A stretch of DNA of 64,000 bases from an uncultured Gammaproteobacteria bacterium (GTDB lineage: Bacteria > Patescibacteriota > Microgenomatia > Levybacterales > UBA12049): assembly GCA_964391315.1 (NCBI GenBank), contig CAYMJR010000001.1, positions 69,949-133,948 on the forward strand. The letters run 5' to 3'. The translations under genes were made by a program, and so were the position numbers. Position 1 is the first letter of the stretch, and every line of letters begins with the position of its first letter. Of this stretch, positions 26,097-57,919 are shown piece by piece. The notes below the pieces were generated by a model that was not told the DNA's origin, searched no databases, and saw nothing but the letters and a program-made list of their open reading frames with translations.

Positions 26097-26666
26097 ATGA
26101 CACCAGTTGAGACTTTCAAATCTTTTGCATTACTTACTTTTCTTATTGGAGCAGTTGCTGGTTGTTATATGGTATGGAGCGGCCCAAGGGACAAAACAAA
26201 ATCAGTAAGCGCACACGCCGGAACTGCAAATAAAAAACTATATATTCTTTACGCACTAGCCTTTCTTATCTCAACCGTTCTCTTTTATCTCTTCTGTATG
26301 TTTTGGTTTATTCCTACATTACATCTTTCATTTGGATTCACCCTTTCTCTTCATGTAATGACAATCCTTTTAGTTCTGACTGCTTTCATTCCTCAGGCAG
26401 GCAAAAAGGTAAAATTACATGCCGTTGTTGCTTATGGTTTTGCGTTTTATATGATGTTGCTTCTCTTTTTTGTAGCACTATCTTCAAATATTTCTCTTAT
26501 TGGAAGAATATTTTCCAGCGGCGTCACCTTGTGGATGATTAGTATGTGGTATTTATTTTTCTTCTCTCGTTATAAAGCAAAAATAGCAGCGCGGTATCTT
26601 CTTTTCCAAAGTTCGTATATCATTCTCTTTTTTCTCTCAATCCTAGCGGCTACCTATCTTCGATAA
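26097..26666 (+). CDS. Hypothetical multi-pass membrane protein
   Basis: 189 aa, hydrophobic. -10-like TATTAT (26085-26090) lies 6 nt before the ATG. No SD sequence. Confidence 0.5.
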   Translation: MTPVETFKSFALLTFLIGAVAGCYMVWSGPRDKTKSVSAHAGTANKKLYILYALAFLISTVLFYLFCMFWFIPTLHLSFGFTLSLHVMTILLVLTAFIPQAGKKVKLHAVVAYGFAFYMMLLLFFVALSSNISLIGRIFSSGVTLWMISMWYLFFFSRYKAKIAARYLLFQSSYIILFFLSILAATYLR

Positions 26667-36026: not shown

Positions 36027-36713
36027 TCATGATTCTTGCTTCTTGATTCGTGTAATAATTTCTTCCGTCACGTCTTCAACAGACTTCGTTGCGTCAATTA
36101 CTGTAAACTCTTCAGGGAACTTTTGCAAGAGCCAATTGTAGCCTTTAATTGTCTTTTCAAGAATCGCTTTATCTTCGTAAATTTCTTTTGTGTCATTATC
36201 CTCTTCTAACCGCTTCATTGCTTTGTCCAAGGGAAGATCAAGATAAAATGTCTTATCAGGAATGGTGAACTGGTGATATAGAGAAAGGATACTTTGCGCA
36301 ACAAGCATATATTCGGCAGTATTCTCATCAAACACACCACCGTGATCCATAATGCCATATGGGACAGCCGACCAAAAACAACGGTCAGACAAAACAATTT
36401 TTCCCGCTCTCAGTGCTGGCAGTATTACTTCCTCATGATGCATCTCCCTGTCAGCGCTGAAAAGATATTGGAAAGCAACAGGAGGAATTTTGGTCTTGCC
36501 ATGAAGAATTTTTTGGATCAACTCGCCAATGAGCCCATCATTCTTGCGGGGTTCACGAGTTTTCACGACTTCCCGACCCTGGGAGGTAAAATAATCATAC
36601 AATGCATCTATTTGGGTCGTCTTGCCGCTTCCATCAATGCCTTCAAGCGCGATATACAAACCGCTTGCTTCATTTCTTTTGAAATCAATATCAAAGGAGA
36701 CATGATATTTCAT
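36027..36713 (-). CDS. tmk: Thymidylate kinase
   Basis: 228 aa. LYIALEGIDGSGKTTQ P-loop, VVKTREP, and DRCFWS in place of the DRY motif. Confidence 0.9.
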   Translation of the reverse strand: MKYHVSFDIDFKRNEASGLYIALEGIDGSGKTTQIDALYDYFTSQGREVVKTREPRKNDGLIGELIQKILHGKTKIPPVAFQYLFSADREMHHEEVILPALRAGKIVLSDRCFWSAVPYGIMDHGGVFDENTAEYMLVAQSILSLYHQFTIPDKTFYLDLPLDKAMKRLEEDNDTKEIYEDKAILEKTIKGYNWLLQKFPEEFTVIDATKSVEDVTEEIITRIKKQES

Positions 36714-36718
36714 AAATG

Positions 36719-37291
36719 CTAATCTTCGTCTTGGTGAATCTTTGATTCTACCGGACCTTGTTGGAATTTATACTTTGCAAATTTTTTACTTGTATACGGA
36801 GTTTCTGCAGGACTTGATAATTCTTCAAACGTCATCGCACAGATCCGCATCCCAACAGTAAGCTTTATTGCCATACGGCCAAGATTGCCAAGTTCCAAAA
36901 CTGGCTTACCATCCCATCCCGGATCAAAGATCGATGCTGTTGAATGAACGACGAGTCCCAAACGTCCAAGAGATGATCGTCCTTCAAGTCGTCCCATCAA
37001 ATCATTTGGGATTTTCACATTTTCCAAAGTAACAGCAAGCACAAATTCCCCTGGCTGCATGATAAACTCTCCGCCATCTTCAATAACAATCTCTTTGGTA
37101 ATTTCATTGCTGAAATCTTTTTTTGAAGGATCGATAAAGGAGTACTTGTTCTGGTCAAAAACGCGGAAAGCATTACCAAGGCGAAGATCTATTGAGCAGC
37201 TGCCAAGTTGGGTCGCAAAATCAGGAGTTGGGGTAATTTCAATTCTTTTTGATTCAAGTGCTTTTTTGATATCCCGATCTGACAAAACCAT
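36719..37291 (-). CDS. dcd: dCTP deaminase
   Basis: 190 aa. MVLSDRDIKKAL start, SIDLRLGN and GRLEGRSSLGRLGL motifs. Confidence 0.9.
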   Translation of the reverse strand: MVLSDRDIKKALESKRIEITPTPDFATQLGSCSIDLRLGNAFRVFDQNKYSFIDPSKKDFSNEITKEIVIEDGGEFIMQPGEFVLAVTLENVKIPNDLMGRLEGRSSLGRLGLVVHSTASIFDPGWDGKPVLELGNLGRMAIKLTVGMRICAMTFEELSSPAETPYTSKKFAKYKFQQGPVESKIHQDED

Positions 37292-38855: not shown

Positions 38856-40373
38856 GTGAAGAAATTATTATTTGCACTGATTCCTTTTCTCTATCTTTTG
38901 ATTCTTCTTTTCCAAAAAGATCTCGCCATGACATCTGATCTGGGACGTCACCTCAAACTCGGTGAAATTATTTTGCAATGTCACTGCGTCCCGCAAACCA
39001 ACCTCTTCTCCTACACCAACCCCAACTTCCCCATTGTGAATCATGAATGGCTTGGCGAAGTCATCTTTTATCTTGTTTCCGCAGCCTTCGGCTTGTCCGG
39101 CCTTCTCATTTTTAAGATGCTCGTCATCATAACAGCAGCTGCTCTTTTATATATAGTAGCTCTCAAAAAAGGCTCAATTTTCTGGGTAACTCTTTTTTCA
39201 CTTCTCTGCATTACTTTGTTCTCAATGCGGTTTTTTGTTCTGCCCGAGCTTTTTAGCTATCTCTTTATTGCCCTTTTTATCTTTCTTATGGAGCGGTATA
39301 AACAAACGAAGAAACTCTCTCTCTTATTATTGCTACCAATTCTCGAATTAATGTGGGTCAACATGCACATCTACTTTATCCTCGGCATCAGCATCTATAT
39401 ATTCTTTATCTTGGAAACCTTACTTCAAGAAAGAAAGCCAAACAAAAATCTGTTACTTATTGGTGCAGCACTCCTTCTTGCAACATTACTGAACCCCAGC
39501 GGCATCCGAGGCGCGCTTCTTCCCTTTACCTTTTCAGCAAATTATGGCTTTACTGTCGAAGAAAACGGCAGTCCCTTCACGATACTTACTCCCAACAGTA
39601 CCAATGGCAATCTCGCCTATACTCTTGTGCTTCAGATCTTTGTTTTTGAATTCCTGCTGGGCATTTTTCTGATCGGTCTCTTTTTGAAAAAACTCTGGAA
39701 GCATCCTTTTCATCTTGGCAATGGCCTGACAGCTGCCTTCCTAGGAGCAAAATATACACGATGTGTGAGTCTTTTTGGTCTTTTGGGTTTTATTCCATTA
39801 GTACAAATGGCAACAATACTTGAAGAAAAGGTGAAAAACAGTATGGAAGAGCCTATGCGAAATATTGTCAAAGATACACTTGCCGTGCTAGTTGTTATTC
39901 TTGTCGGAATTCATGTCAAAGGAGTAATCGATTACAAAATTCTGCAATTTGGGTTTGAACCATCAGCTGAAAATGCTGCGGCCTTTATCAAAAACACTGG
40001 TGTTAAAGGACGGATTTTCAACAATTATGTCGTTGGCAACTATCTGATCTATGCTCTCTATCCACAAGAACAAGTCTATGTCGATGCGAGACCTGAAGCA
40101 TATCCTGCTGGCTTTTTTACTGATTATTGGCGCATGATGGCAGATCAGACATTTTTTGATCAGCAAGTACAAAAATATAATATCAACGCAGTCGTCTTCA
40201 ATGTAGCACTGGAAGATCCAACAAGAAGCAGACCGTTTCTCATCCGACTACTACAAAGTAATCAATGGATCCCCGTTTATGGCGACGGAACAATAACTAT
40301 TCTCGTCCGAAACAACACAGTAAACAAAGCTGTAATTGATAAATATAGAATTCCTCTGGGAACTAATTACTAG
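38856..40373 (+). CDS. Polytopic membrane protein, possible GT-C-type glycosyltransferase
   Basis: 505 aa, GTG start. About 10 hydrophobic segments followed by a soluble C-terminal domain. Assignment is by architecture only. Confidence 0.4.
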   Translation: MKKLLFALIPFLYLLILLFQKDLAMTSDLGRHLKLGEIILQCHCVPQTNLFSYTNPNFPIVNHEWLGEVIFYLVSAAFGLSGLLIFKMLVIITAAALLYIVALKKGSIFWVTLFSLLCITLFSMRFFVLPELFSYLFIALFIFLMERYKQTKKLSLLLLLPILELMWVNMHIYFILGISIYIFFILETLLQERKPNKNLLLIGAALLLATLLNPSGIRGALLPFTFSANYGFTVEENGSPFTILTPNSTNGNLAYTLVLQIFVFEFLLGIFLIGLFLKKLWKHPFHLGNGLTAAFLGAKYTRCVSLFGLLGFIPLVQMATILEEKVKNSMEEPMRNIVKDTLAVLVVILVGIHVKGVIDYKILQFGFEPSAENAAAFIKNTGVKGRIFNNYVVGNYLIYALYPQEQVYVDARPEAYPAGFFTDYWRMMADQTFFDQQVQKYNINAVVFNVALEDPTRSRPFLIRLLQSNQWIPVYGDGTITILVRNNTVNKAVIDKYRIPLGTNY

Positions 40374-41925
40374 ATCCTAAACGGATCTGCTGAAAGTTTA
40401 TTATTGCATCCTGGTATAATTCCGATAAGGATATCGTTTTCCCTTTACAATTGTTCTTTAATGTATAAACACCGAGTGAGTACTTACCATCAGGATTAGG
40501 AAATGACTTGGCGAGAACAAAAAACCGATCGAGCCCTACTCGCTGATCATATCGTGTTACGAAAAATACAGGATATTGTGATGTCATACATTGATAGGTA
40601 CCAATATCCGGAAAAAATTTTGCATCAATATGAAATGGGAATAATTGCAGATCTTTATCTGAATAGGCATCAATAGCATTTTCAGGATTGCCGGAATTTA
40701 TTGCAAAAAACACAAGTGTTGGCTTCGTGGGGATTGAATTGTCTTTGATATAACTCATGATCTCTTTAATCCCATACCCAGATGTCTGTCCTCTCACATG
40801 CTCGACATTGGAATCCGCAGAAACTTTCGCCATATGCATAATATAGCTGTCAGGAGAAACAATAAGATAAAGAGAGCAAACCAAAGGTACCATGACAAAA
40901 ATACCTGTAGCAACATATCGCATGACAGTATTTTTCAAAAAAGTGAGTAGATAAACACCTGGGATAATAAAAAATGGTAGAAAAGGCATAAGATAGCGCT
41001 GATTTTGACTCCTGGCCAAAAACATCTCAAGAAACAACGCAAGGATAAAATAGGTCAAGTAAATCGAACTATCCTCCACTTTCTTTCTCCACATCAAGAC
41101 AAGCCCTGAAATTCCGCATAAAAAGACAACAGGAGTAATAAAGAAAAACCCAATATCAATAAACCTCCACACATTTGTCCACCAGGTACCAAATGGAAAG
41201 CGACTCAGCTCGCCAAATGTTAACGAGTAACGATCATTTGATCCAAACGTCTGCCAGAAATACGCGCTGACAAATAAAATTGTATCCACAATAAGCATTG
41301 AGACAATGGCAACAAGCGATGGTTTGATAAGTTCTTTTCTCCCCTTTTTTAGGATTGCAAAAAGCAAAATAGCAACTGCTGAAGCGATGAAGAGTAAGAT
41401 TGATGATTTTATCAAAAATCCAATTCCCAAAAGAATACCCAATGTTCTTCCATTCTGTAGATTCGGCTTGTGAATAAGATTCAGCAACGCATAAAATGCC
41501 CAGATCCCAATACATGCGACATCTGCTTCCATAAGTGCCTGTCTGTTGTAGAAAACAAAAATCGGGACAATTGCAAAAACGAGCGCAGAGAGAAATGCTA
41601 CCTGTTTGTCAAACATTTTCTTTGCAATTGCATAGATACCAACAAGTGTTCCCGCACCAAAAAGGACTGAGACAAATCTTCCTGCAAAAAGCGGATCAGC
41701 CAAAAAGTTTTCAAATATGCCGAAGATCCAGAATGTGAGTGGCTGTTTGGAATCGACGAGTGAGTCATAAAGATGCCCTGGTAGATGAGTGTCGCTCCAT
41801 GCCCAATCGATATAAATGGACTCATCATTGTACGGGACAAGCAAAGTGAGGTTGATGAAATGAAAAATGAAATAAAAAACTAGTAGACCCAAAATCAACC
41901 GATGCCTTAGAATTAATCTATTCAT
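40363..41925 (-). CDS. GT-C glycosyltransferase, PMT/ArnT (family 39/83)-like
   Basis: 520 aa. First-loop DE motif (VPYNDESIY), PLFAGRFVSVLFGAGTLVGIY and many TM segments, as in PMT_2-type enzymes. Confidence 0.65.
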   Translation of the reverse strand: MNRLILRHRLILGLLVFYFIFHFINLTLLVPYNDESIYIDWAWSDTHLPGHLYDSLVDSKQPLTFWIFGIFENFLADPLFAGRFVSVLFGAGTLVGIYAIAKKMFDKQVAFLSALVFAIVPIFVFYNRQALMEADVACIGIWAFYALLNLIHKPNLQNGRTLGILLGIGFLIKSSILLFIASAVAILLFAILKKGRKELIKPSLVAIVSMLIVDTILFVSAYFWQTFGSNDRYSLTFGELSRFPFGTWWTNVWRFIDIGFFFITPVVFLCGISGLVLMWRKKVEDSSIYLTYFILALFLEMFLARSQNQRYLMPFLPFFIIPGVYLLTFLKNTVMRYVATGIFVMVPLVCSLYLIVSPDSYIMHMAKVSADSNVEHVRGQTSGYGIKEIMSYIKDNSIPTKPTLVFFAINSGNPENAIDAYSDKDLQLFPFHIDAKFFPDIGTYQCMTSQYPVFFVTRYDQRVGLDRFFVLAKSFPNPDGKYSLGVYTLKNNCKGKTISLSELYQDAIINFQQIRLGSSN

Positions 41926-42096
41926 TATATCCTTACTCTCTCATGCTATCACCCCTTAACTCTTCTTTTCAAGAACCTTATCACTATTAATTTTTATTTA
42001 AAAATCTAAAGCCTTTATACAAATACTATATCTGACAAAAATCTGACAATAGATGAGCGATCTAGAGCATTTTGAACTAGAATATTTTTTCCTCTC

Positions 42097-42125
42097 TTGA
42101 CAGACCGTTAACTATGGGTTATTAT
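42097..42125 (+). promoter_or_regulatory. Promoter TTGACA-N17-TATTAT (twin copy 1)
   Basis: -35 at 42097-42102, -10 at 42120-42125, ATG at 42137 (11 nt later). Shares CTCTTGACA-N6-TAACTATGGGTTA with the 42752 copy. Confidence 0.6.
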
Positions 42126-42136
42126 ACTCAGGTATT

Positions 42137-42553
42137 ATGTCAGCAGCAAGAATAATTGAAGCCGGAAAGTCTGTAGGTTCTCATGCAGCTATTGATGCTG
42201 CACGCCTCCCCGTTGAACCAACCCTAAAGAGAAGAAGACTTTCTGATGTAGTTGTAAAGGGCGGAATAACTTTAACAGGAATTGCCCTTGCAGGTGTACT
42301 ACTAACTGGATGTCGAGGAACAGGAACTGATAACGGTAGCAGCAATCAAGGGAACCCATCTAAAGGTGACAACAAAGGCACAAGCGTCTATAAGGGCGAT
42401 TATGGAAAAGATCTTGCAAACTGCATTAATGATGCCACTAGAAATGAGCCAAAGACTACTACTACTACTGCCACACCTGATCCAAAAGCATATCCTGATC
42501 CCACTATTCTTGAGAAATGCAAGGTTAAACTGCTTAATCAACCACATTCCTAA
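42137..42553 (+). CDS. Small membrane-anchored/lipoprotein-like protein
   Basis: 138 aa. About 45-aa basic N-terminus, TM segment GGITLTGIALAGVLLTGC with a lipobox-like LTGC, then a T-rich extracellular tail. Confidence 0.55.
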   Translation: MSAARIIEAGKSVGSHAAIDAARLPVEPTLKRRRLSDVVVKGGITLTGIALAGVLLTGCRGTGTDNGSSNQGNPSKGDNKGTSVYKGDYGKDLANCINDATRNEPKTTTTTATPDPKAYPDPTILEKCKVKLLNQPHS

Positions 42554-42751
42554 TATAATTATCTTATACTAAGATAAATCTGAGCACATAATTTACCAGT
42601 ATTTTGTCTATTCTCCCTCAAATCATATCAAACATCCTGCACTCTCAATTGTAATAATCACAGACAAACACTACAATACTATATCAAATCCTTATATTGA
42701 TATATTACCATCATTTATGTCATATTTAATCTAGGTCTGTAAATTCACCTC

Positions 42752-42780
42752 TTGACAAATATATAACTATGGGTTAGTAT
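42752..42780 (+). promoter_or_regulatory. Promoter TTGACA-N17-TAGTAT (twin copy 2)
   Basis: -35 at 42752-42757, -10 at 42775-42780, ATG at 42790 (9 nt later). Confidence 0.6.
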
Positions 42781-42789
42781 ATTATTACT

Positions 42790-43080
42790 ATGTCAGCAGA
42801 AATACGACGAACTCTTCATTCAGGAAGACCTGAAAGACCTTGGACTCAAGATCGAAGACATTTACCAAATCCATTAACTGTGATACGTAATGGTCTGACT
42901 AGTGAAGATCCAACAATACGTCGTAATACACGAATAGGCGTTGCTATTTTAGCTATACCAACAGTAGTTGCTACGTTCTTTGGAGCAAGTATTGGTCTTG
43001 AACACGGTGTTCATGTTACTACACCTGATGGTGTTGTTCCACACCCAACACCTGCTACTCCTCAACCTGGTGGAGCATAA
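42790..43080 (+). CDS. Small single-pass membrane protein
   Basis: 96 aa. Begins MSA like the 42137 product. R-rich about 46-aa N-terminus, TM segment IGVAILAIPTVVATFFGASIG, short P/T tail. Confidence 0.55.
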   Translation: MSAEIRRTLHSGRPERPWTQDRRHLPNPLTVIRNGLTSEDPTIRRNTRIGVAILAIPTVVATFFGASIGLEHGVHVTTPDGVVPHPTPATPQPGGA

Positions 43081-43143
43081 AGGCAAATTTTCTAAAAACT
43101 TCCTAATTTTTTTGGTAAACTCTTCAAGAATCTTAAAGAACAG

Positions 43144-43172
43144 TTGACAAGCATTCGCCACTCACGTAAGCT
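43144..43172 (+). promoter_or_regulatory. Promoter TTGACA-N17-TAAGCT, ATG 7 nt after the -10
   Basis: -35 at 43144-43149, -10 at 43167-43172, ATG at 43180. Confidence 0.5.
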
Positions 43173-43179
43173 AAAATTA

Positions 43180-44820
<1,641 letters not shown>

Positions 44821-44840: not shown

Positions 44841-46439
44841 ATGAAAAAATATTCTTCTGCTAAAGGGTTAATGATCTTTATAGGAATGATCGTAGTATTC
44901 CTTTTTCTCCCGTCGCTTAGTATTAAGCAGAACACCTGTTATGCACAGGTCGGTGTGGGTGCATCATGTAATGCAGGTGGATATCCAGGCGTTTGTCATA
45001 CCAGGCCTAGTTACTCTTGTCCAACCTATTTTGACTCAGGAAATTATTGTCCTGGAGCCGCCAATGTCCAATGTTGTGTGAATAGTACGGTAAGCTGCGG
45101 TACTCCCTGGGGATCAGGAACGTGTCGCAATAACTATATGGCGTGTAATGGCACATACCACTCGGGATATTGTCCGGGTCCTTCTGATGTCCAATGTTGT
45201 GTTCCCAACCCACCAACCCCAACCCCGGTACCGGCTACCCCAACCCCTGCCACTTGTGTCAATGACCCAGATCTTACAGGCACAAATAGAATCATCTCCA
45301 CCGGTGTCGCAGTGAGTGCATCCGGAGTCTACAACAACGATACAGCCACTTACGGCCCTCAAAATATTGTTGATGGTGTTCTCGACCGCAATAAAATCTG
45401 GGATGCAGGAGGATTTCCGACACAATGGGTGGAATTTGATCTTGGAGCACCACAAGCTGTCGCTGGCATGAAACTTTATGTCAACCAGTCACCAAATGGA
45501 GGAACAACCCATCAAATTTATGGCGGTCCAAACCCAAATCCAACGACACTTCTTCGTACAATCAGCTGTGGTACAAATGATGGTGATGTGCTTACGGTCG
45601 ATTTTACTAACGCTAAAAATATTCGTTACATTAGAGTTACAACAACGGCAAGTCCGTCATGGGTAGCATGGAGTGAAATCACCATCTTTGGAACGTCACC
45701 CGGATCAGAAACAAAAACACCAGGGATTATCTTTTCAGGTGATGGATCGGCATCCTTTGGTCAGGGCCATGCTTCAACCACAAATTGGGTAGTGGGCGGA
45801 CTTTCCTCCTATTCTGAAGTATTCAATACCGTTACCAACAAATCTTTTACTAATTATCAAAATATTCTTGACCGCGTGCAAACCGGACAAATTCCAATCA
45901 CTGACATATCGACAATCTGTACGCTTACCAACTGTAGTCTGCCAGCTAACTTACCCAATGGTGTCTATCAAGCAAAGGGAAATCTCAATCTTAATGGTTA
46001 CACCTTCCCCGACAACAAAAATTATGTCTTTTTGATAAATGGGGACTTTACTATTCTTGGAAACATTGTTGTTCCGAATGGATCAACAGCCTTCTTTACA
46101 AGCAGCAATGACATTACAGTCGATACCAATGTTGGAACTGCAACCAATCTTTTTCCATTACCAGCAGGACAATTGGATGGCATCTATAGTGCAGATGCCA
46201 ACTTCAGAATCAACGGCATAAATAACTGTACCGTTGCAAAAGATAAAATGCTCAATGTCGAAGGTGCCATTGTGACTAACGCTGTTGGTAACGGCGGCAC
46301 ATTCAGAATACAACGGGATTTATGCGGCGACAATCTCCGCTATCCTGCATTTACTATACGCGCACGACTCGACATGTTGTTAAATATGCCTGAAGTTCTT
46401 ATGCAACAATCAACAACCCTAAAAGAAGATGCTCCCTAG
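44841..46439 (+). CDS. Secreted protein: two N-terminal 6-Cys modules, PT linker, F5/8 type C (discoidin)-like domain, beta-rich C-terminal domain
   Basis: 532 aa with a signal peptide. CNAGGYPGVCHTRPSYSCPTYFDSGNYCPGAANVQCC plus CGTPWGSGTCRNNYMACNGTYHSGYCPGPSDVQCC. NIVDGVLDRNKIWDAGGFPTQWVEFDLG...IRYIRVTTTASPSWVAWSEITIFG fits a discoidin domain. Confidence 0.7.
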   Translation: MKKYSSAKGLMIFIGMIVVFLFLPSLSIKQNTCYAQVGVGASCNAGGYPGVCHTRPSYSCPTYFDSGNYCPGAANVQCCVNSTVSCGTPWGSGTCRNNYMACNGTYHSGYCPGPSDVQCCVPNPPTPTPVPATPTPATCVNDPDLTGTNRIISTGVAVSASGVYNNDTATYGPQNIVDGVLDRNKIWDAGGFPTQWVEFDLGAPQAVAGMKLYVNQSPNGGTTHQIYGGPNPNPTTLLRTISCGTNDGDVLTVDFTNAKNIRYIRVTTTASPSWVAWSEITIFGTSPGSETKTPGIIFSGDGSASFGQGHASTTNWVVGGLSSYSEVFNTVTNKSFTNYQNILDRVQTGQIPITDISTICTLTNCSLPANLPNGVYQAKGNLNLNGYTFPDNKNYVFLINGDFTILGNIVVPNGSTAFFTSSNDITVDTNVGTATNLFPLPAGQLDGIYSADANFRINGINNCTVAKDKMLNVEGAIVTNAVGNGGTFRIQRDLCGDNLRYPAFTIRARLDMLLNMPEVLMQQSTTLKEDAP

Positions 46440-46487
46440 CTACTAACCCTTGACTCTTCACTCTATTCCTGAGTAAACTAAGAGTGT

Positions 46488-47699
46488 ATGAACCTTTCAA
46501 ACAGGATCAAAATCGTATTATCTCTGTTACTGATTCTTTTTATTAGTATTCCTATCACACTTTCCCTTATTCAAAAACAGCAAAATTCACATAGTAACGC
46601 ATCAGCAGGCACTACCCTTTCGCTCATTCCCGAACCTGGACCATCAAGCGATATTACAAAAACAGTTGGAGATACTGTTCCCATCGATATAAAAGTCGAT
46701 CCAGGATCAAACCTTGTAACAATCCTTCGTTTACAGGCACACTATGACCCCACCATACTTCAAGTGGATACGACCAACCCCTTCACACCCACCACCAAAT
46801 TTTCAATAACGCTCCAACCTGTTATCAATAATGGTACCGTCTCACTCATTATTACGACAGGTGGTTCTCCAAGTGATGCTATCCAATCGATAACGACAGC
46901 TGGGACTTTCCATTTTAAAGCAATTGGTGCAACAAGCGACTCACCGTCCGTTGTGTCGTTTACGTCGCAAACACAAGCATTTTCTGCAGGTTCCAATGAC
47001 ACCGCTCGGGATAATGTCCTCAGCAGCACAAATCCTGCTAACATCACAATCAGTACTGCCAGCGCTACTCCTACCCTTGTAACTCCTACAACGTCAAATA
47101 CCCAGCTGTCCTTTACCATTCTTCTCCATGGTATTGGAGCAGCTGGTGATACACCAAATCCCACAGCAAATGACTTAAGTAATAAAAACCCCAAGCGTCC
47201 TGAAAGGCAAGTAACAGCCTCTGTCTATGATTCCCACGACCAATTGGTAACCAGCGGTACCGGTACAATTACCTACGTAAGGACAAACGATAACGCCGAT
47301 GCTATTGGTACCTTTCAAGGATTAGTTACTCTTGGTGCTCCACTTGCCAATGGGAAATATACAGTAAAAGTCAAATCTGACGGCTATTTACGTAAATCTT
47401 TTCCCGGTACTATTACAATCGTTGGTAACCAGGTCAACGTTCTTCCTCCAATTGCTTTGGTTGCTGGTGATACTGACGGAGATAATGCGCTTACTATTCT
47501 TGATTATAATGCGCTTTTGGACTGCGGATATGGCTCCCTCAATCCACTTCCGCTCACCAACTTAAGTTCAGACTATAACTCATCTACTTGCAAAACACAT
47601 GAGCCAAGAAGTAATATTGATCTTAACGATGATGGATTTGTAAATGCGTATGACTATAACTTATTTATTCGAGAACTCTCAGTACAGAGCGGAGATTAA
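46488..47699 (+). CDS. Secreted protein with cohesin-like N-domain, beta-sandwich middle domain and C-terminal dockerin
   Basis: 403 aa with a signal/anchor. VGDTVPIDIKVDPGSNLVTILRLQAHYDPTILQV is cohesin-like. C-terminal GDTDGDNALTILDYNALL and DLNDDGFVNAYDYNLFIREL are two EF-hand-like dockerin repeats. Confidence 0.65.
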   Translation: MNLSNRIKIVLSLLLILFISIPITLSLIQKQQNSHSNASAGTTLSLIPEPGPSSDITKTVGDTVPIDIKVDPGSNLVTILRLQAHYDPTILQVDTTNPFTPTTKFSITLQPVINNGTVSLIITTGGSPSDAIQSITTAGTFHFKAIGATSDSPSVVSFTSQTQAFSAGSNDTARDNVLSSTNPANITISTASATPTLVTPTTSNTQLSFTILLHGIGAAGDTPNPTANDLSNKNPKRPERQVTASVYDSHDQLVTSGTGTITYVRTNDNADAIGTFQGLVTLGAPLANGKYTVKVKSDGYLRKSFPGTITIVGNQVNVLPPIALVAGDTDGDNALTILDYNALLDCGYGSLNPLPLTNLSSDYNSSTCKTHEPRSNIDLNDDGFVNAYDYNLFIRELSVQSGD

Positions 47700-47702
47700 C
47701 AC

Positions 47703-48989
47703 ATGATAAAAAAACTTTTGCTTATTGGGTTACTCATTGTTGCATGTGTTGGTCTTCCCATTACAATCTATCTTTTTCAGCATGCTCAAGATACAAGAAG
47801 TCATGCATCTGCAGGGACAACCCTTTCTCTCATACCTGGAGCTGGTCCATCAAATAGTACTCAAAAAAACGTAGGAGATAATATTCCAATCAATCTTATT
47901 GTCAATCCTGGCCCAAATCAGGTAGGCATTCTTAAAATACAAATTGTTTATGACCCAACCAAGATTCAACCTGATTCGAATAATCCTTTCACTGTAGTTT
48001 CTACTGTTCCACCGCCTTTACATGATCCTGTCATCGATAACAACAATGGCACTATTTCTTTCACTATTTCTGTTGGAACAGATATTAGTAAAGCAATACA
48101 GACTCAAGAGACAATAGGGACATATAATTTCAAAACCGTTGGGGCAACCAACGGTTCTCCCACTCTTGTTTCCTTTACCAACCAAACAGCAGTTCTCTCT
48201 ATCGGACCAAATGATCAAACCTCAGAAAATGTTCTCAGCAACACAACTCCTGCACAAATTACTATTCTTCCTGTAGTTCCAACACCAACTGATACACCAA
48301 CACCTACAGAGACACCGGTAACACCAACCAATACACCAACACCAACTAATACGCCAACTCCTAGACCAACTCGCACACCAACACCGATACCAACCAATAC
48401 ACCAACACCAACCAATACACCAACGCCTGCCCCACTTACTGCAAACGAATTTGCCCTTACTGTATTTTTGCACAACATTGGTAACAGCGGTGACAACACC
48501 AATCCTACTGCTTTCAGTCTCAGTAATAAAAAACCACTCCATCAGCCACGTGATTTCACTGTTTCAATCTACAACGCAGATACTGCAAAACTTATTATGA
48601 GTAAAACAGATAGTCTCGACTTCTCAAGCAATTCAGGTAATTATTCTGGAATATTTTCACTTGGACTAAGCCTTTTGGAAGGTGATTACATTATCAAGGT
48701 CAAAACAAATGATTTTCTCCAAAAAAGAGTCCCAGGGTTTTTCCATATCACACCAGCAACAGAAATTACACTTCCTGAAATTACCCTTATTGCAGGCGAT
48801 TCCAATGGAGATAATGTACTCAATATTCTTGATTACAATATGCTTACTGATTGCTACAGCGATTTCTTGCCACCAACAAATTGTGATGCTACTAAGAAGG
48901 ACGCAACCGACCTTAATGATGATGGAAATGTCGATATTTCCGATATTAACCTCTTCCTGCGTGAGCTCAAGGTCCAGAGCGGCGACTAA
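47703..48989 (+). CDS. Paralog: cohesin-like domain, long TPTP linker, beta-sandwich domain, dockerin
   Basis: 428 aa. Starts 3 nt after the previous stop. VGDNIPINLIVNPGPNQVGILKIQIVYDPTKIQP. Linker (TNTPTP)n at about 48279-48432. GDSNGDNVLNILDYNML and DLNDDGNVDISDINLFLREL. Ends VQSGD like the paralog. Confidence 0.65.
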   Translation: MIKKLLLIGLLIVACVGLPITIYLFQHAQDTRSHASAGTTLSLIPGAGPSNSTQKNVGDNIPINLIVNPGPNQVGILKIQIVYDPTKIQPDSNNPFTVVSTVPPPLHDPVIDNNNGTISFTISVGTDISKAIQTQETIGTYNFKTVGATNGSPTLVSFTNQTAVLSIGPNDQTSENVLSNTTPAQITILPVVPTPTDTPTPTETPVTPTNTPTPTNTPTPRPTRTPTPIPTNTPTPTNTPTPAPLTANEFALTVFLHNIGNSGDNTNPTAFSLSNKKPLHQPRDFTVSIYNADTAKLIMSKTDSLDFSSNSGNYSGIFSLGLSLLEGDYIIKVKTNDFLQKRVPGFFHITPATEITLPEITLIAGDSNGDNVLNILDYNMLTDCYSDFLPPTNCDATKKDATDLNDDGNVDISDINLFLRELKVQSGD

Positions 48990-48997
48990 AACAACGT

Positions 48998-49585
48998 ATG
49001 GCCAAAACAATTCTTACCTTTTTGATAATCTTCTCATTTCTCGTAGCAGGCATTGGATATATTGTGATCCTTTTCCAGGATAACAATACATCCTTTTCCC
49101 TACCCTTCCAGAATACTCCGACTCCAACCCCTGCCCCTATTACCTCGTTGACTCTGATACCCGAAACAGCAAGTGTTCTCCCACAACAAACAAATACCGT
49201 TGACGTTGTTTTTGACTCATCAAATAATACAAGCTACAAACCGAAAATAATTCAAATGGAAATTGGCTATGATCCGATGGCTCTTGAAAATGTCGCTATC
49301 GCACCTGGTGATTTCTTTCCTGATCCTTCTGTGGCACTTAATATCATTGATTTCAAAACCGGAAGAATATCCTATGCACTGCAAACAGCAAAGGTAAATC
49401 AAAAAACAAAAGGGATTGTTGCACGGCTTAGCTTTATACCCAATCCTACTTTTTCTGGGATCCAAACTGCTCTCTCATTTCTTGGCAAAACCATGATTCG
49501 AGGAATGGCAAATGAAAATATTCTTACAGCAACCTATGGAACGCAACTGCAGTTTGCTACTCCAAGTGCAACGCCAAAATTCTAA
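48998..49585 (+). CDS. Membrane-anchored cohesin-like protein (no dockerin)
   Basis: 195 aa. N-terminal TM segment LTFLIIFSFLVAGIGYIVILF, TPTPTPAP linker, then SLTLIPETASV...IIQMEIGYDPMALENVAIAPGDFF, which is cohesin-like. Confidence 0.55.
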   Translation: MAKTILTFLIIFSFLVAGIGYIVILFQDNNTSFSLPFQNTPTPTPAPITSLTLIPETASVLPQQTNTVDVVFDSSNNTSYKPKIIQMEIGYDPMALENVAIAPGDFFPDPSVALNIIDFKTGRISYALQTAKVNQKTKGIVARLSFIPNPTFSGIQTALSFLGKTMIRGMANENILTATYGTQLQFATPSATPKF

Positions 49586-53778: not shown

Positions 53779-53885
53779 AATTTTATGGTAGCATATCTTT
53801 ATTTTTGCTCTACTATCTACTACATAAGACATGTTCAATTTTTGGAAGTAAAGTGGAGTTCTTGAGTAGAATAAGTAATAATTAG

Positions 53886-53958
53886 TGGGCATCCATGGAG
53901 TCGAACCATGCGCCTCTTTCTTATCAGGAAAGCGTTCTAGCCGATGAACTAGATGCCC
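53886..53958 (-). tRNA. tRNA-Ile (anticodon GAU)
   Basis: 73 nt: GGGCATC-TA-GTTC-ATCGGCTA-GAAC-G-CTTTC-CTGATAA-GAAAG-AGGCG-CATGG-TTCGACT-CCATG-GATGCCC-A. All stems pair. CCA is not encoded. Confidence 0.9.
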
Positions 53959-54385: not shown

Positions 54386-54389
54386 AGTG

Positions 54390-54462
54390 AGGCGCGAAGG
54401 GGAGTTGCACCCCTGAATGGCTGTTCTGCAGACAGCTGTGTTAGCTACTTCACCACCGCGCC
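54390..54462 (-). tRNA. tRNA-Cys (anticodon GCA)
   Basis: 73 nt: GGCGCGG-TG-GTGA-AGTAGCTA-ACAC-A-GCTGT-CTGCAGA-ACAGC-CATTC-AGGGG-TGCAACT-CCCCT-TCGCGCC-T. U73 discriminator and A13/A22 mismatch as in bacterial tRNA-Cys. T loop is unusual (G at position 55). Confidence 0.75.
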
Positions 54463-54869: not shown

Positions 54870-55665
54870 ATCGCAGTAAGAACTATTCTGCTCCCCACTG
54901 GACGTGCGGATTTCCCGCATCCAGCGAGTCTCTTATAAAATCCTCTTTGAGAAGTCTAATCTTCCCAATGCCATCGGAAGTAAGATGCTGTTTGTTTAAC
55001 ATTAATTCTGCTACTTTACAAAATAATGCAAAACTAAATTTTTTCTTTGCTTGTAAAGGATACTTCTGAAAAAAAGGTATAACTTTTGTTGTGATATCTT
55101 TTAAGTTTGAGACTTTATATTTACAATGGGGTCTCCACTTTTTATATCTCTCATAGTTGAGGTAATAAATATTACCACAACTAAGCGTTTCTTTTACTCT
55201 TTCCAGAATTTCCTTATCATCTTCTCGTAATTCAATTTCAAAGATGAGTCTTACTTCAAGCAAACGATTATTGTTATGGTTGTTAAAAGTAATACTAAAA
55301 CAACCTTCACCATCTACTAAACCGACTAAATAATAAGGATTTAATTTTGAGTTCATCCCTTCTCCTAATATTATTATACATAATACTAAGATACTATGGA
55401 ATTTGCTGACTTCCTCTAGCCTATTATTGTTCTGACGCATAGAGGATCTCCTTGGGTCACGCAAAAAACAATTTCAAACATCCTAAAAAGCTTTTTCAGG
55501 GCTCTTCCTCTTAGTACACATAAGAGTCGAGCTGCTTTGTAATTTTAGGCTACTCTTCGTTACATCGAACCCTTCAGACTTTCTCTTACGAGCTAAGTCC
55601 TGTTCTTCAACTACATGAGTGGATTTTCACCACTTTGTTTTTTACGCTGCCAAGCGCATTTAATT
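54870..55665 (-). mobile_element. 796-nt insertion in 16S between TGTACA and CACCGCCCGTC (about E. coli 1396/1397), carrying a LAGLIDADG gene
   Basis: Flanking exon sequences rejoin to the universal TGTACACACCGCCCGTC. The insert starts AAUUAAAUGCG and ends CUUACUGCGAU. Confidence 0.8.
54883..55356 (-). CDS. LAGLIDADG homing endonuclease (single-motif, about 157 aa)
   Basis: ATG at 55356 is preceded by AGGAGAAGGG. MNSKLNPYYLVGLVDGEGCFSI carries the LAGLIDADG motif. Lies entirely inside the insertion. Confidence 0.85.
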   Translation of the reverse strand: MNSKLNPYYLVGLVDGEGCFSITFNNHNNNRLLEVRLIFEIELREDDKEILERVKETLSCGNIYYLNYERYKKWRPHCKYKVSNLKDITTKVIPFFQKYPLQAKKKFSFALFCKVAELMLNKQHLTSDGIGKIRLLKEDFIRDSLDAGNPHVQWGAE

Positions 55666-55981
55666 TGTACAAGACCCGAGAACGTATTCACCGCGGCCTT
55701 CTGATCCGCGATTACTACTGATTCCGACTTCATGGAGTCGGGTTGCAGACTCCAATCTGAACTGAGGCGAAATTTCTGAGATTAGCTTGCCGTCACCGGC
55801 TTGCAGCTCATTGTTCTTCGCCATTGTAGGGTGTGTGTTACCCAAGGTATAAGGGACGTGCTGACTTGACGTCTTCCGCTCCTTCCTTCCCAGTAAAACT
55901 GGGACCGTTTCTAATGAATATGTAACATTAGACACGGGTTGCGCTCGTTTCCCCACTTAAGGGAACACCTCCGAATCGTTT

Positions 55982-56796
55982 GATAATACAAACGAACTTA
56001 GACTATACCTTTATCCTCTCATTGAGTAGGATACTGACGTGTTATGGAACATTATATGAATAATTTTCCATCTCTGCTGTTATGCAGAAGTCGTTACGGG
56101 GTCAAAAATTTTATACTGAAATGTTGAAAGAATATATGGTCTTATTAACGAAAAGAAAGTTTCAATACTTTTTTTCTTAATTAATAATTTTGAATCATTT
56201 TTGAAAGAGCATTTTATATCAAACTCATCTTCAAGTCTCTTCTGAAGAAATAAAATATCTTCTCTTGAAAATCCATCAGTAGCAATAATACATTTATGGT
56301 CACTAAAACAACCATCATCCATGTACCAAATTGCTAAAACTAATGGTGTAAGTTGAATATCTTTGGGAATAATCTTTTTGTTGTCGAAATAGAATTTCTC
56401 TCTCCAAGATGAAAAATATTGACGAGTCCAAAACCGATAAGAAGTATATGTTTGAGAAAAACGTTTATCAAAACGTTCAACTTTCGATACATTCTTATAT
56501 GAAATTGAACCTAATTCTTGGTGTTTCCAAAAAAGATATTCTTTCTGATTACTACTCTGTTCAAATTGAATCTGACCTCTTTTTGTTATATATGCATCGC
56601 CAAGAAGTGAACCTATTAAGATTTCTTCTTGATGATTTGTTACAAAAAGTTTTTGATTCTTTCGAGCTCTCAGTTGCATAAAACTTCGACTTCCCTCGGT
56701 ATTACAACAGTATACCAAAATACACTTTTGCTTCACCGATATGAGTCAGTTATACATCCCGATATTACTATCGGGAGCCGCGAGACATTTTTGTTC
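55982..56796 (-). mobile_element. 815-nt insertion in 16S (about E. coli 1078/1079), group-I-intron-like boundaries, carrying a LAGLIDADG gene
   Basis: The 5' exon ends ...CGUGCCGU, with U at -1. The insert ends ...AACGAUUCG, with a terminal G. The spliced product has the same length as E. coli across CGUGUUGUGAAAUGUUGGG. GNRA hairpin CCCGAUA-GUAA-UAUCGGG near the 5' end. Confidence 0.75.
56080..56736 (-). CDS. LAGLIDADG homing endonuclease (double-motif)
   Basis: Motifs ILIGSLLGDAYI and LAIWYMDDGCF. The track start is a GTG at 56736; an alternative ATG lies at 56679. Lies entirely inside the insertion. Confidence 0.85.
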   Translation of the reverse strand: MKQKCILVYCCNTEGSRSFMQLRARKNQKLFVTNHQEEILIGSLLGDAYITKRGQIQFEQSSNQKEYLFWKHQELGSISYKNVSKVERFDKRFSQTYTSYRFWTRQYFSSWREKFYFDNKKIIPKDIQLTPLVLAIWYMDDGCFSDHKCIIATDGFSREDILFLQKRLEDEFDIKCSFKNDSKLLIKKKSIETFFSLIRPYILSTFQYKIFDPVTTSA

Positions 56797-56940
56797 ACGG
56801 CACGAGCTGACGACAGCCATGCATCACCTGTGTTACCATCCTTGCGGATTGCCCCTTATTTCTAAAGGGCTGTACGGTAGCATGTCAAACCTTGGTAAGG
56901 TGTTTCGCTTCGTCTCGAATTAAACCACACGCTCCACCAG

Positions 56941-57000
<60 letters not shown>

Positions 57001-57919
57001 TCCGCTTAATGCGTTAGCTTGGACCCCTGCAAGCAAGCTTGCAAGAGCCAGCGGACATCGTTTACGGCTAGGACTACACAGGTATCTAATCTGTTTCGCT
57101 ACCCTAGCTTTCGTGCCTCAGCGTCAGGAAAAGTACAGAAGCTTGCCTTCGCCCTTGGTGTTCCAGTTAATATCAACGCATTTCACTGCTACACTAACTG
57201 TTCCAGCTTCCCAACCAATCCTCAATTCCATGAGTATCCTCGCCACTCCCAAGGGTAAGCCTTGGTCTTTAAGCAAAGACTTTATGGAACGCCTACGCAC
57301 ACTTTACGCCCAATGAATCCGGATAATGCTTGCTCCCTACGTATTACCGAGACTTCTGGCACGTAGTTAGTAGGAGCTTATTCTCCAAGCTGTGAACGGC
57401 TTGGTAAAAGGAGTTTACAACCCGAAGGCCTTCATCCTCCACGCGGCGTCGCTGCGTCAGACTTTCGTCCATTGCGCAATATTCCCAGTTGCTGCCATCC
57501 GTAGATGTACTGCCCGTGTCTCAGTGCAGTTGTGGCTGATCGACCTCTCAGTCCAGCTACCCGTCATTGCCTTGGTGGGCCTTTACCCCGCCAACTAGCT
57601 GATAGGACGCAGGCTCCCCCCTTGGCGGTCCGTTAAGACCTTTACTCTTACGAGAACTATGGAGAATTACCCCCTCTTTCGAGGGGCTATGCTCCACCTA
57701 GGGATAGATTCCTACGCGTTACTCACCCGTCTGCCGCTGACTTGTATTGCTACTCATCCGCTCGACTTGCATGCTTAAGGCACGCCGCCAGCATTCATCC
57801 TGAACCAGGATCAAATTCTCAAAAAAATTTGAGAGGTACCATCGCTGTGATGATACTTCTGATTTCGGATTTTTTTTATTCTGATTGCTCAGAGTTAAAT
57901 AGGTAAACCCGAAAAAATT

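What the first reader, a model, noticed from the sequence alone, without database searches (positions are those of the whole stretch)
42097..43080. Duplicated promoter-plus-start cassette driving two small single-pass membrane proteins
Seen in sequence: two loci about 650 nt apart share an extended identical promoter core. Copy 1 (42094-42146) is CTCTTGACAgaccgtTAACTATGGGTTAtTATActcaggtATTATGTCAGCAG. Copy 2 (42749-42799) is CTCTTGACAaatataTAACTATGGGTTAgTATAttATTACTATGTCAGCAG. Both have TTGACA-N17-TA(T/G)TAT, and the ATG lies only 11 or 9 nt after the -10, so the 5' UTR would be roughly 2-5 nt. Both ORFs begin MSA.

Both products have the same architecture: a basic cytoplasmic N-terminus of about 45 aa, one TM helix, and a short extracellular tail. 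One has a lipobox-like LLTGC. A related core (AACTATGGTATTAT) also precedes the membrane protein at 26097.

Inference: these are paralogous, co-regulated small membrane proteins at the head of the surface island. They could serve as anchors, chaperones or regulators for it.
Basis: seen in the sequence. Interest (0 to 1): 0.55.

Follow-up and report, generated by a model that had tools for sequence, protein, structure and literature searches.

The report
Conserved promoter module driving fast-evolving exported proteins
Two neighbouring small membrane-protein genes in an uncultured Levybacteria-like (CPR) bacterium share a duplicated promoter; its full ~140-bp version is much better conserved between species than the proteins it drives, which makes it a tidy but not revolutionary case of a strongly constrained control region in front of rapidly changing surface proteins.

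Summary
CTCTTGACA-N6-TAACTATGGGTTA plus ATGTCAGCAG occurs exactly twice in 64 kb (0 expected), in front of two genuine coding ORFs (138 aa lipobox protein; 96 aa single-pass protein).

- The very short 5' leader is not special. About 20% of gene starts in the window have a sigma-70-type promoter abutting the start codon, against 1.7% of control positions, and SD motifs are near background.
- The two proteins show no detectable sequence similarity, so paralogy is not shown.
- The "related core" at 26097 is at chance level.

New findings:
- Copy 1 is the 3' part of a ~140-nt non-coding module (two upstream boxes plus the core). It is 87.5% identical in a relative whose neutral sites are only 57% identical.
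- The module recurs in four Levybacteria-like genomes, always followed within 5-11 nt by an ATG opening a non-alignable protein of the same architecture. In the 3 contigs that reach that far, these genes lie just upstream of an orthologous SdrD_B adhesin gene.
- Copy 2 is a 74-nt partial duplicate (core plus start only).

Most likely this is a regulated strong promoter module for near-leaderless mRNAs of fast-evolving exported proteins. The regulator and the protein function remain unknown. Interest is moderate.

The parts
42008..42149 (+). Full regulatory module P1 (upstream boxes + core promoter + start of ORF1)
   Evidence: The nhmmer profile built from five full modules (window P1 is one of them) matches here at E 1.9e-36. 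The stretch 41983-42136 is 87.5% identical to L014 (133/152), against 57% at 4-fold sites of the adjacent gene, P=5e-16. BLASTN gives 89.4% over 141 nt.
42024..42052 (+). Box 1: ATACTATATCTGACAA-AAAT-CTGACAATA (7-bp direct repeat at 11-bp spacing); candidate transcription-factor site
   Evidence: Conserved in window P1, L014_P1, L022_PA and L022_PB, and partly in L023_P1 (alignment A4). That it binds a factor is inferred, not tested.
42058..42082 (+). Box 2: GATCTAGAGCATTTTGAACTAGAAT (two TCTAGA-type palindromic half-sites); candidate transcription-factor site
   Evidence: Conserved in L014, L022_PB and L023_P1. Function is inferred.
42094..42125 (+). Core promoter P1: CTC-TTGACA(-35)-gaccgt-TAACTATGGGT-TATTAT(-10)
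   Evidence: 11/12 match to the consensus, 17-nt spacer. The spacer element is exactly conserved in 5 of the 8 aligned modules (one mismatch each in L022_PA and L014_P2, three in L023_P0).
42137..42553 (+). ORF1, 138 aa: Arg-rich N-terminus, hydrophobic segment, lipobox L-T-G-C (Cys59), ~80-aa tail with a Cys pair (DYG..C-I-N ... AYPDP ... C)
   Evidence: Coding statistics; hydropathy and lipobox. The C-terminal 42 aa are 38% identical to the promoter-linked L022_A (E 5e-5). No Pfam, NCBIfam or PDB hit. HMMER against 1.84e9 representatives finds only ORF1 itself.
42726..42799 (+). Partial module copy P2 (T-rich flank, core promoter CTC-TTGACA-aatata-TAACTATGGGT-TAGTAT, start ATGTCAGCAG)
   Evidence: nhmmer E 1.2e-9, covering profile positions 67-140 only. 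Core identity to P1 is 73%, while the upstream part is about 50%, which is background.
42790..43080 (+). ORF2, 96 aa: Arg-rich 48-aa N-terminus, one TM segment, ~30-aa Pro/Thr-rich tail
   Evidence: GC3 0.09, codon log-odds 0.254. No homolog was found.
43144..44820 (+). Downstream SdrD_B-domain surface protein (ATG at 43180), with its own unrelated promoter TTGACA-17-TAAGCT-7-ATG; this is the conserved neighbour of the module genes
   Evidence: Pfam SdrD_B, E 3.7e-17. Ortholog in L023 at 56% over 259 aa, E 2e-84, and an N-terminal fragment in L014. Promoter.

Best explanation
The duplicated sequence is the core of a lineage-specific cis-regulatory module of about 140 bp, found in Levybacteria-like CPR bacteria.

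The module has three parts:
- two upstream boxes: a CTGACAA direct repeat at 11-bp spacing, and a pair of TCTAGA palindromes;
- a near-consensus sigma-70-type promoter (TTGACA, 17-bp spacer, TATAAT-like -10) whose spacer carries an invariant TAACTATGGGT (an AT tract followed by a G-rich stretch next to the -10);
- an ATG 5-11 nt after the -10.

Transcription would therefore give an mRNA with a leader of 0-5 nt and no Shine-Dalgarno sequence. That is how many first-in-operon genes in this genome appear to be expressed.

The module drives small proteins with an Arg-rich cytoplasmic N-terminus, one hydrophobic segment (a lipoprotein signal in ORF1) and a short, fast-evolving extracytoplasmic part. 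In the 3 contigs that reach that far, these genes lie just upstream of an SdrD_B-type adhesin gene.

In this genome the core and the first 10 nt of the coding sequence were copied once more (P2), by local duplication or gene conversion, without the upstream boxes. ORF2 would then share basal promoter strength with ORF1, but probably not all of its regulation.

Shown: the repeat, its conservation and constraint, the coding status and architecture of the ORFs, and the genome-wide promoter-next-to-ATG habit.
Inferred: the transcription start sites, that the boxes and spacer element bind proteins or tune RNA polymerase, export and lipidation, and the biological role.
For: - The repeat is unique and beyond chance.
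- It has canonical promoter geometry.
- The module is 87.5% identical between the window and L014, while 4-fold sites of the flanking PMT_2 gene are 57% identical (P=5e-16) and the coding sequences downstream are unalignable.
- The same module, with an ATG 5-11 nt after the -10, recurs in L014, L022 (twice) and L023.
- Downstream proteins share an architecture: N-terminus of 18-48 aa with an R:K ratio of 41:5, one hydrophobic segment, and a lipobox in ORF1, L014_111 and L023_296.
- ORF1's C-terminal motif is shared with L022_A.
- The adhesin neighbour is orthologous in L023 and L014.
- Promoters abutting start codons are 12-fold enriched at gene starts, and SD motifs are near background.
- The spacer element is absent from the window's 18 other promoters.
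- There is no RNA-family hit and no fold signal, z=-0.37.
- Spacers with an AT tract plus a G-rich region next to the -10 are reported to raise sigma-70 promoter strength by up to 600-fold (PMC12641261).
Against: - There are no transcript data, so the start sites and promoter activity are inferred from consensus only.
- No candidate regulator is encoded near the locus.
- Only four related genomes were found, so the boxes rest on 5 full copies.
- The exact 19-nt core also occurs in unrelated CPR contigs (L011, L020, L021) ahead of other genes. The core alone may therefore be a generic 'optimal' promoter and not a specific operator.
- Protein homology among the driven genes is demonstrable for only one pair.
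- Only a 64-kb window of this genome could be searched, so a genome-wide count of the motif is missing.
Confidence: 0.62

Rival explanations
1. Convergence, not duplication. P1 and P2 look alike only because both are near-optimal strong sigma-70 promoters with an optimal spacer and a favoured start context for leaderless translation. They have no common origin and no shared specific regulator.
For: - The exact core TTGACA-N6-TAACTATGGGTTA followed by TATAAT or TATTAT also occurs in Saccharibacteria-like and other contigs, in front of unrelated genes or ORF-less transcripts.
- Its layout fits the general strong-spacer architecture (PMC12641261).
- The upstream part of P2 is at background identity to P1, about 50%.
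Against: - P1 and P2 share genome-specific details outside the functional hexamers: CTC before the -35 and ATGTCAGCAG. These are absent from the orthologous modules, which have ATGGCA or ATGAGA.
- The nhmmer match of P2 spans 74 nt, E 1e-9.
- P2 keeps remnants (AATACTATATC, TCTAG) in the right order.
- The window's 18 other promoters show no such spacer.
Confidence: 0.12
2. Expression-site or cassette system. The conserved module is a fixed expression site and recombination target, behind which unrelated coding cassettes for surface proteins are exchanged. This would be analogous to the variable surface lipoprotein loci of mycoplasmas.
For: - Similarity between orthologous positions stops abruptly at about codon 3-4, while the upstream 150 nt are 87.5% identical.
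- Tandem arrays of module-driven genes have non-alignable products in all four genomes.
- Within-genome cores are slightly more alike than orthologous ones, 73% and 72% against 69%.
- The locus encodes lipoproteins next to adhesins.
Against: - Six independent same-species contigs from different sequencing runs are 100% identical over the locus.
- No recombinase gene, no flanking inverted repeats beyond chance, and no promoter-less silent copies were seen in the window or the loci.
- There is no homopolymer or repeat tract inside the spacer.
- ORF1 and L022_A still share a diverged C-terminal motif, which indicates divergence in place, not replacement.
Confidence: 0.1
3. The ORFs are incidental, and the conserved region encodes or controls a non-coding RNA.
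For: - The non-coding part is more conserved than any protein encoded downstream.
- Both proteins are ORFans.
- In L020 the same core drives a ~150-nt ORF-less transcript that ends in a terminator-like hairpin.
Against: - ORF1 and ORF2 have normal codon log-odds in the annotated frame and strong three-base periodicity, with GC3 of 0.25 and 0.09.
- The ATG position relative to the -10, and the architecture of the product, are conserved in every copy.
- There is no Rfam hit at E<=1 and no excess folding energy.
Confidence: 0.04

Closest known systems
Housekeeping (sigma-70 / RpoD-type) promoters giving leaderless or near-leaderless mRNAs, as described in Actinobacteria, Deinococcus-Thermus and others (own knowledge)
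   Same: TTGACA-17 nt-TATAAT-like hexamers. The -10 ends 5-11 nt before the ATG, and there is no Shine-Dalgarno motif. This arrangement is common across the window.
   Different: Two features are not part of a generic promoter: an invariant 11-13-nt spacer element, and about 90 nt of conserved upstream boxes under strong constraint. No start-site data exist for this lineage; the two searches of the held library found no promoter or start-site mapping study of CPR bacteria.
Variable surface lipoprotein gene families of mycoplasmas (Vlp of M. hyorhinis, Vsp of M. bovis, Vpma of M. agalactiae; own knowledge, and PMC2268961 as listed)
   Same: Tandem genes for small membrane-anchored proteins or lipoproteins in a reduced-genome bacterium. 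A highly conserved 5' region (promoter and start) precedes divergent mature regions, and the locus is tied to cell-surface functions.
   Different: Here the conserved block ends at codon 3-4, so the signal peptide itself is not conserved. There is no poly(A) tract in the spacer, no site-specific recombinase or inversion sites, no internal tandem repeats, and no variation among six samples.
Strong-spacer architecture of sigma-70 promoters (AT tract, then a G-rich region next to the -10; PMC12641261)
   Same: N6-TAACTAT-GGGT fits the described layout of an AT tract followed by a G-rich region adjoining the -10.
   Different: That work describes a statistical tendency, not an exactly conserved 13-mer. 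Here the element is invariant in 5 of 8 copies and absent from the other promoters of the same genome.
Bacterial lipoprotein (SPase II) signal peptides; twin-arginine signal peptides
   Same: ORF1, L014_111 and L023_296 have a positively charged n-region, a hydrophobic h-region and a lipobox-like [L/A]-[T/A]-[G/A]-C. All six promoter-linked proteins have RR 5-17 residues before the hydrophobic segment.
   Different: The Cys lies at residue 55-59, after a 30-45-aa N-terminal extension, which is far longer than usual. The rest of the Tat consensus (S/T-R-R-x-F-L-K) is not matched, and ORF2, L022_A and L022_B lack a lipobox.

Membership tests
Sigma-70-type promoter | -35 TTGACA-like and -10 TATAAT-like hexamers separated by 16-18 bp | tested here: met
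   P1 matches 11/12 and P2 10/12, each with a 17-bp spacer. The same geometry holds in L014, L022 and L023.
Sigma-70-type promoter | Transcription actually initiates about 7 nt downstream of the -10 | not testable with these tools
   No transcriptome or 5'-end data are available.
Leaderless / near-leaderless mRNA gene | No Shine-Dalgarno sequence, and a -10 so close to the start codon that the leader is 0-5 nt | tested here: met
   The -10-to-ATG gaps are 11 and 9 nt. There is no SD-like 4-mer in positions -18 to -4. The same pattern is 12-fold enriched at gene starts in the window.
   BLASTP finds no alignment at E<=100. Only the first three residues (MSA), which are part of the duplicated DNA, are shared. 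The architecture is the same.
Bacterial lipoprotein (ORF1) | Lipobox [LVI][ASTVI][GAS]C after a hydrophobic h-region and a basic n-region | tested here: met
   KRRR ... GITLTGIALAGVL-LTGC, with Cys59. No dedicated SPase II predictor was available, and the 30-aa extension ahead of the n-region is atypical.
Bacterial lipoprotein (ORF1) | The genome encodes Lgt and LspA | not tested
   Only 64 kb of the genome was on hand.
Twin-arginine (Tat) substrates | S/T-R-R-x-F-L-K motif before a weakly hydrophobic h-region, with TatA/TatC present | tested here: inconclusive
   RR lies within 20 aa of the hydrophobic segment in 6/6 proteins (joint P about 0.005 given their composition), but the rest of the motif is not matched. 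No TatA-like signature occurs in the window.
Mycoplasma-type phase-variable lipoprotein loci | A switching device: a homopolymer in the promoter spacer, or a recombinase with inversion sites | tested here: not met
   There is no homopolymer in the spacer, no significant flanking inverted repeats, no recombinase among the neighbours scanned, and 100% identity across six contigs.
Structured cis-regulatory RNA / known ncRNA | Match to an Rfam family, or folding energy beyond shuffles | tested here: not met
   No Rfam match at E<=1 in 41800-43300. Fold z-score is -0.37.

The most novel reading that the evidence does not exclude
The ~140-bp module could be a dedicated, deeply constrained 'expression platform' of Levybacteria-like CPR bacteria. 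Its spacer element and upstream boxes would be operators of an unidentified regulator that switches on a set of hypervariable, Arg-tailed exported proteins together with the adhesin island, for example on host contact. It might also serve as the homology anchor through which new coding sequences are captured or exchanged. The recurrence of the exact 13-mer in Saccharibacteria, next to a divergent TrmB-like regulator gene, would then point to a CPR-wide regulator-operator pair.
Probability: 0.12. Interest if true: 0.65.

Novelty: new variant of a known kind. Interest (0 to 1): 0.42.

Why it matters
Almost nothing is known experimentally about promoters, regulators or translation initiation in CPR/Patescibacteria. 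This locus offers three things.

- **A candidate regulatory region for testing.** The non-coding region is concrete, strongly constrained (87.5% identity against 57% at neutral sites) and has discrete candidate operator boxes. It could be tested in reporter assays, or used as bait to fish for a CPR transcription factor.
- **Evidence on gene expression.** The sequence suggests that leaderless or near-leaderless expression is the default for first-in-operon genes in a Levybacteria-like genome.
- **A family of fast-evolving proteins.** These small Arg-tailed exported proteins and lipoproteins are physically linked to adhesin genes. They are invisible to homology searches and recognisable only through their promoter. 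That suggests 'promoter-guided' gene-family discovery as a way into the ORFan surface repertoire of episymbiotic bacteria.

If it turns out to be no more than a strong duplicated promoter, the finding is ordinary.

Tried and rejected
- **Protein homology.** Word-seeded searches for ORF1 and ORF2 hit only the proteins themselves, as did an exhaustive HMMER search for ORF1 against 1.84e9 representatives. Pfam, NCBIfam and PDB sequence searches gave nothing significant.
- **Cluster look-up.** It gave no names or accessions.
- **Same-species contigs** (L001-L010) are 100% identical and therefore uninformative for selection tests.
- **Synteny through PMT_2 homologs.** Only the 80%-identity relative L014 keeps the locus. 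The relatives at 52-60% (L015-L019, and P0006, which has no DNA on hand) have other neighbours.
- **Genome-collection motif scan.** It gave 3 single hits, about the roughly 4 expected by chance for 19 specified bases, and did not contain this genome.
- **TrmB-like regulator lead.** The regulator next to the motif in L011 and L020 has no homolog in the window or in the Levybacteria loci by tblastn.
- **Structured RNA or riboswitch reading.** Rejected.
- **Third copy at 26097, and a relaxed hit at 29630 that overlaps a start codon.** Both rejected as chance.
- **Invertible-promoter reading.** The only flanking inverted repeat (42550-42572 / 42774-42796, 74% complementary, AT-rich) is weak, and no variation exists.
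- **Integron-cassette reading.** Considered and dropped without a formal attC test: each unit carries its own promoter, and no integrase was seen among the scanned neighbours.
- **Structure prediction.** Not attempted, because only single sequences of largely low-complexity proteins could be submitted.
Full report
**1. Observation**

- The pattern CTCTTGACA-N6-TAACTATGGGTTA occurs at 42094 and 42749 and nowhere else in the 64-kb window, even with three mismatches allowed. Shuffles give 0 expected.
- The repeat finder reports a 38-nt pair at 79% identity and, in the same register, a 17-nt pair covering the start codon and the next seven bases at 88%.
- Both sites are the best sigma-70-like promoters in the 41-45 kb region: TTGACA-17-TATTAT and TTGACA-17-TAGTAT.
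- The ATGs follow 11 and 9 nt after the -10 and open ORFs of 138 and 96 aa that both begin MSA.
- Each product has an Arg/Lys-rich N-terminus of 42-48 residues and a single hydrophobic segment. ORF1 has L-T-G-C at residues 56-59.

The supposed third relative at 26097 is not a copy:
- it has no TTGACA;
- its register to the -10 differs by 2 nt;
- the shared octamer AACTATGG occurs six times in the window;
- a profile of the module does not detect it.

**2. Are the ORFs genes, and are they paralogs?**

Both ORFs look like real coding sequence.
- Codon log-odds per codon are 0.243 and 0.254, against a median of 0.257 for 38 other ORFs of 90-249 aa.
- The annotated frame is the best of the three.
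- GC at codon positions 1/2/3 is 0.53/0.51/0.25 for ORF1 and 0.62/0.57/0.09 for ORF2.

The two proteins are not detectably similar: BLASTP gives no alignment at E<=100. Neither matches Pfam, NCBIfam or any PDB sequence. Each hits only itself among 5.8 billion clusters. An exhaustive HMMER search of 1.84 billion representatives with ORF1 also returns only ORF1.

'Paralogous' is therefore not supported by sequence. What is duplicated is DNA that ends at codon 3-4.

**3. The short leader is the rule in this genome**

I scanned all gene starts for a -35/-10 pair whose -10 ends 4-13 nt before the start codon.
- 11 of 55 genes of at least 150 aa have a match of 9/12 or better, against 1.7% of random positions and 1.6% of internal ATGs.
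- Among 18 such promoters other than the two in question, 12 have a gap of 6-8 nt. That places the transcription start on or next to the A of the ATG.
- SD-like tetramers occur upstream of 18% of starts, against 12% of random positions.
- The next gene, the adhesin with its ATG at 43180, has its own unrelated TTGACA-17-TAAGCT-7-ATG.

The spacer element is not: the 18 other promoters carry essentially no information between the hexamers.

**4. Organism and relatives**

Homologs of the divergently transcribed PMT_2 glycosyltransferase (40363-41925) are named Candidatus Levybacteria/Levyibacteriota where they carry a name. The window also contains a 16S rRNA gene interrupted by LAGLIDADG endonuclease ORFs. 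From my own knowledge, that is typical of CPR bacteria.

The closest relative is contig L014, with PMT_2 at 80% amino-acid identity and 81.3% nucleotide identity over 2172 nt.
- The non-coding stretch at window 41983-42121 aligns to L014 at 89.4% over 141 nt.
- Over 41983-42136 the identity is 133/152, or 87.5%. Fourfold-degenerate sites of PMT_2 are only 57% identical (n=173), giving a binomial P of 5e-16.
- Immediately after the ATG the alignment collapses, and the L014 product (111 aa) has no BLASTP similarity to ORF1.
- It nevertheless has the same architecture: a 41-residue Arg-rich N-terminus, a hydrophobic segment and the lipobox L-A-A-C.
- The next L014 gene (469 aa) is preceded by a degenerate copy of the core, TTGACTtgggttTAATTATGGGAGTATATA.

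**5. More copies from metagenomes**

An exact scan for TTGACA-N6-TAACTATGGGTTA in the JGI metagenome contigs returned ten loci.

Two of them, L022 and L023, carry the upstream boxes as well as the core.
- L022 has two complete tandem modules. They drive proteins of 105 and 114 aa, each with an Arg-rich N-terminus, one TM segment and a Cys pair.
- L023 has one full module driving a 296-aa lipoprotein (…SRRRGRRPGRF…VAAGC) and a degenerate copy before the preceding 361-aa gene. It is followed by a 714-aa SdrD_B protein that is 56% identical over 259 aa to the window's adhesin, E 2e-84.
- L023 is also syntenic further out, with dCTP deaminase and thymidylate kinase as at window 36027-37291.
- L014's truncated last gene is the N-terminus of the same adhesin.

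The alignment of eight copies (A4) defines the module:
- **Box 1:** ATACTATATCTGACAA-N4-CTGACAATA.
- **Box 2:** (G)ATCTAGAcCATTTTGATCTAGA.
- **T-rich stretch.**
- **Core:** TCTTGACA-N6-TAACTATGGGT plus the -10.
- **Start:** after 5-11 nt, an invariant TATG, often followed by GCA or TCA.

A profile built from the five full copies finds one full copy in the window (42008-42149, E 2e-36), one partial copy (42726-42799, E 1e-9, core and start only), and nothing else in 64 kb.

Within this promoter-linked set, ORF1's C-terminal region (DYGKDLANCIN…AYPDP…EKC) matches L022_A (DYGTRFAECIN…AYPDP…NEC) at 38% over 42 aa, E 5e-5. At least part of the family is therefore homologous but diverging too fast for database-scale detection.

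**6. Origin of the second copy**

- Core identity is highest within genomes: window P1-P2 at 73% and L022 PA-PB at 72%, against 69% for the orthologous pair P1-L014_P1.
- The two window copies alone share CTC before the -35 and ATGTCAGCAG.
- The upstream boxes are orthologously conserved only at P1 (89% to L014, 80% to L022_PB). The upstream part of P2 is at background, with remnants AATACTATATC and TCTAG.

This fits a local duplication or gene conversion of the core and 5' end. I cannot distinguish between the two with so few genomes.

**7. What the core element may be**

The exact core also appears in Saccharibacteria-like contigs (L011, L025-27) and in L020, next to a divergent TrmB-like regulator gene. 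The two regulators are 39% identical to each other. There the core is followed by TATAAT, and in L020 by an ORF-less transcript of about 150 nt ending in a terminator-like hairpin. In L021 and L029 it sits in front of a leaderless zinc-ribbon gene.

No TrmB-like gene is present in the window or in the Levybacteria loci.

PMC12641261 reports that strong sigma-70 spacers across bacteria have an AT tract followed by a G-rich region abutting the -10, and that spacer sequence alone can change promoter strength up to 600-fold. TAACTAT-GGGT fits that layout.

The core may therefore be a near-optimal promoter that recurs for that reason, a regulator's operator (TAAC-N5-GTTA is a short palindrome), or both. 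This is open.

**8. Readings tested and set aside**

- **Structured RNA.** No Rfam hit at E<=1 and a fold z-score of -0.37.
- **Phase variation or cassette switching.** Six same-species contigs from different runs are 100% identical. There is no homopolymer in the spacer, no significant flanking inverted repeats and no recombinase among the scanned neighbours.
- **Tat export.** An RR pair lies 5-17 residues before the hydrophobic segment in all six proteins. The joint probability is about 0.005 given their composition, and R outnumbers K by 41 to 5. But the rest of the Tat motif is absent and no TatA signature occurs in the window. This remains inconclusive.

**9. Verdict**

It is not a peculiar 'promoter-plus-start cassette' with an unusually short leader, nor a demonstrable pair of paralogs.

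It is a strongly constrained, lineage-specific regulatory module of about 140 bp, plus a partial duplicate of its core. The module drives near-leaderless mRNAs for fast-evolving small exported proteins, one of them a likely lipoprotein. In the 3 contigs that reach that far, these genes sit just ahead of an adhesin gene.

The regulator, the transcription start sites, export and the biological role are all inferred.

It is a new variant of known things: regulated sigma-70 promoters, leaderless genes, and gene families with a conserved 5' region. Its practical value is as an entry point to CPR gene regulation. Interest is moderate.

Noticed in passing
window 54870-57826 (minus strand): The 16S rRNA gene is interrupted. 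The default Rfam hit covers only model positions 9-873 (56996-57818). Nearby lie ORFs for a LAGLIDADG_2 endonuclease (56080-56736) and a LAGLIDADG_1 endonuclease (54883-55464), and a sub-threshold group II intron domain hit at 54870-54929. tRNA-Ile(GAT) lies at 53885-53958, and a tRNA called Cys(GCA) at 54389-54462, the position where (from my own knowledge) rRNA operons usually carry tRNA-Ala.
   Followed up: partly
whole window (e.g. starts at 7051, 9490-, 26041-, 33421-, 38856, 43180, 52751-, 59647-, 61421-, 61475, 62562): Sigma-70-type promoters whose -10 ends 6-11 nt before the start codon are 12-fold enriched at gene starts, and Shine-Dalgarno motifs are near background. Leaderless or near-leaderless mRNA therefore seems to be the default for first-in-operon genes of this Levybacteria-like genome.
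   Followed up: yes
window 43590-43650 (inside the adhesin gene 43180-44820): A run of Gly codons (a poly-G/GGT tract encoding about 20 Gly residues). Three of the six same-species Logan contigs end at 43625 and a fourth at 43650, probably an assembly break at low complexity. The L014 ortholog has the same poly-Gly run at its contig end.
   Followed up: partly
L020 1635-1900 (Ga0315268_10009474) and L011 2000-2400 (Saccharibacteria MAG CAYZXG010000067.1): The identical core promoter sits in the divergent intergenic region next to a TrmB-like HTH regulator gene in two distantly related CPR contigs. L020 has two tandem promoters of the same design, and the second is followed by an ORF-less stretch of about 150 nt ending in a hairpin plus T-run (a candidate small RNA). 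There is no Rfam match.
   Followed up: partly
L021 394-690 / L029 (Ga0307376_10241948, Ga0307377_10348256): The same core promoter with TATTAT-6 nt-ATG (exactly leaderless geometry) drives an 82-aa CxxC…CPxC zinc-ribbon protein in a 34% GC contig.
   Followed up: no
L014 2522-3292 (minus strand): The closest relative carries an extra 256-aa gene with no Pfam match, inserted between PMT_2 and the conserved module; the window lacks it. A TATAAT-6 nt-ATG sits at an in-frame ATG about 60 nt inside the called ORF.
   Followed up: no
window 44841-49585: The 'surface island' includes proteins with F5/8 type C, cohesin and dockerin domains (cellulosome-like modules) and repeated Cys-rich 'CPGxxxVQCC' segments shared between the 43180 and 44841 products. 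Several of these genes have their own promoter abutting the ATG (e.g. 46488).
   Followed up: partly
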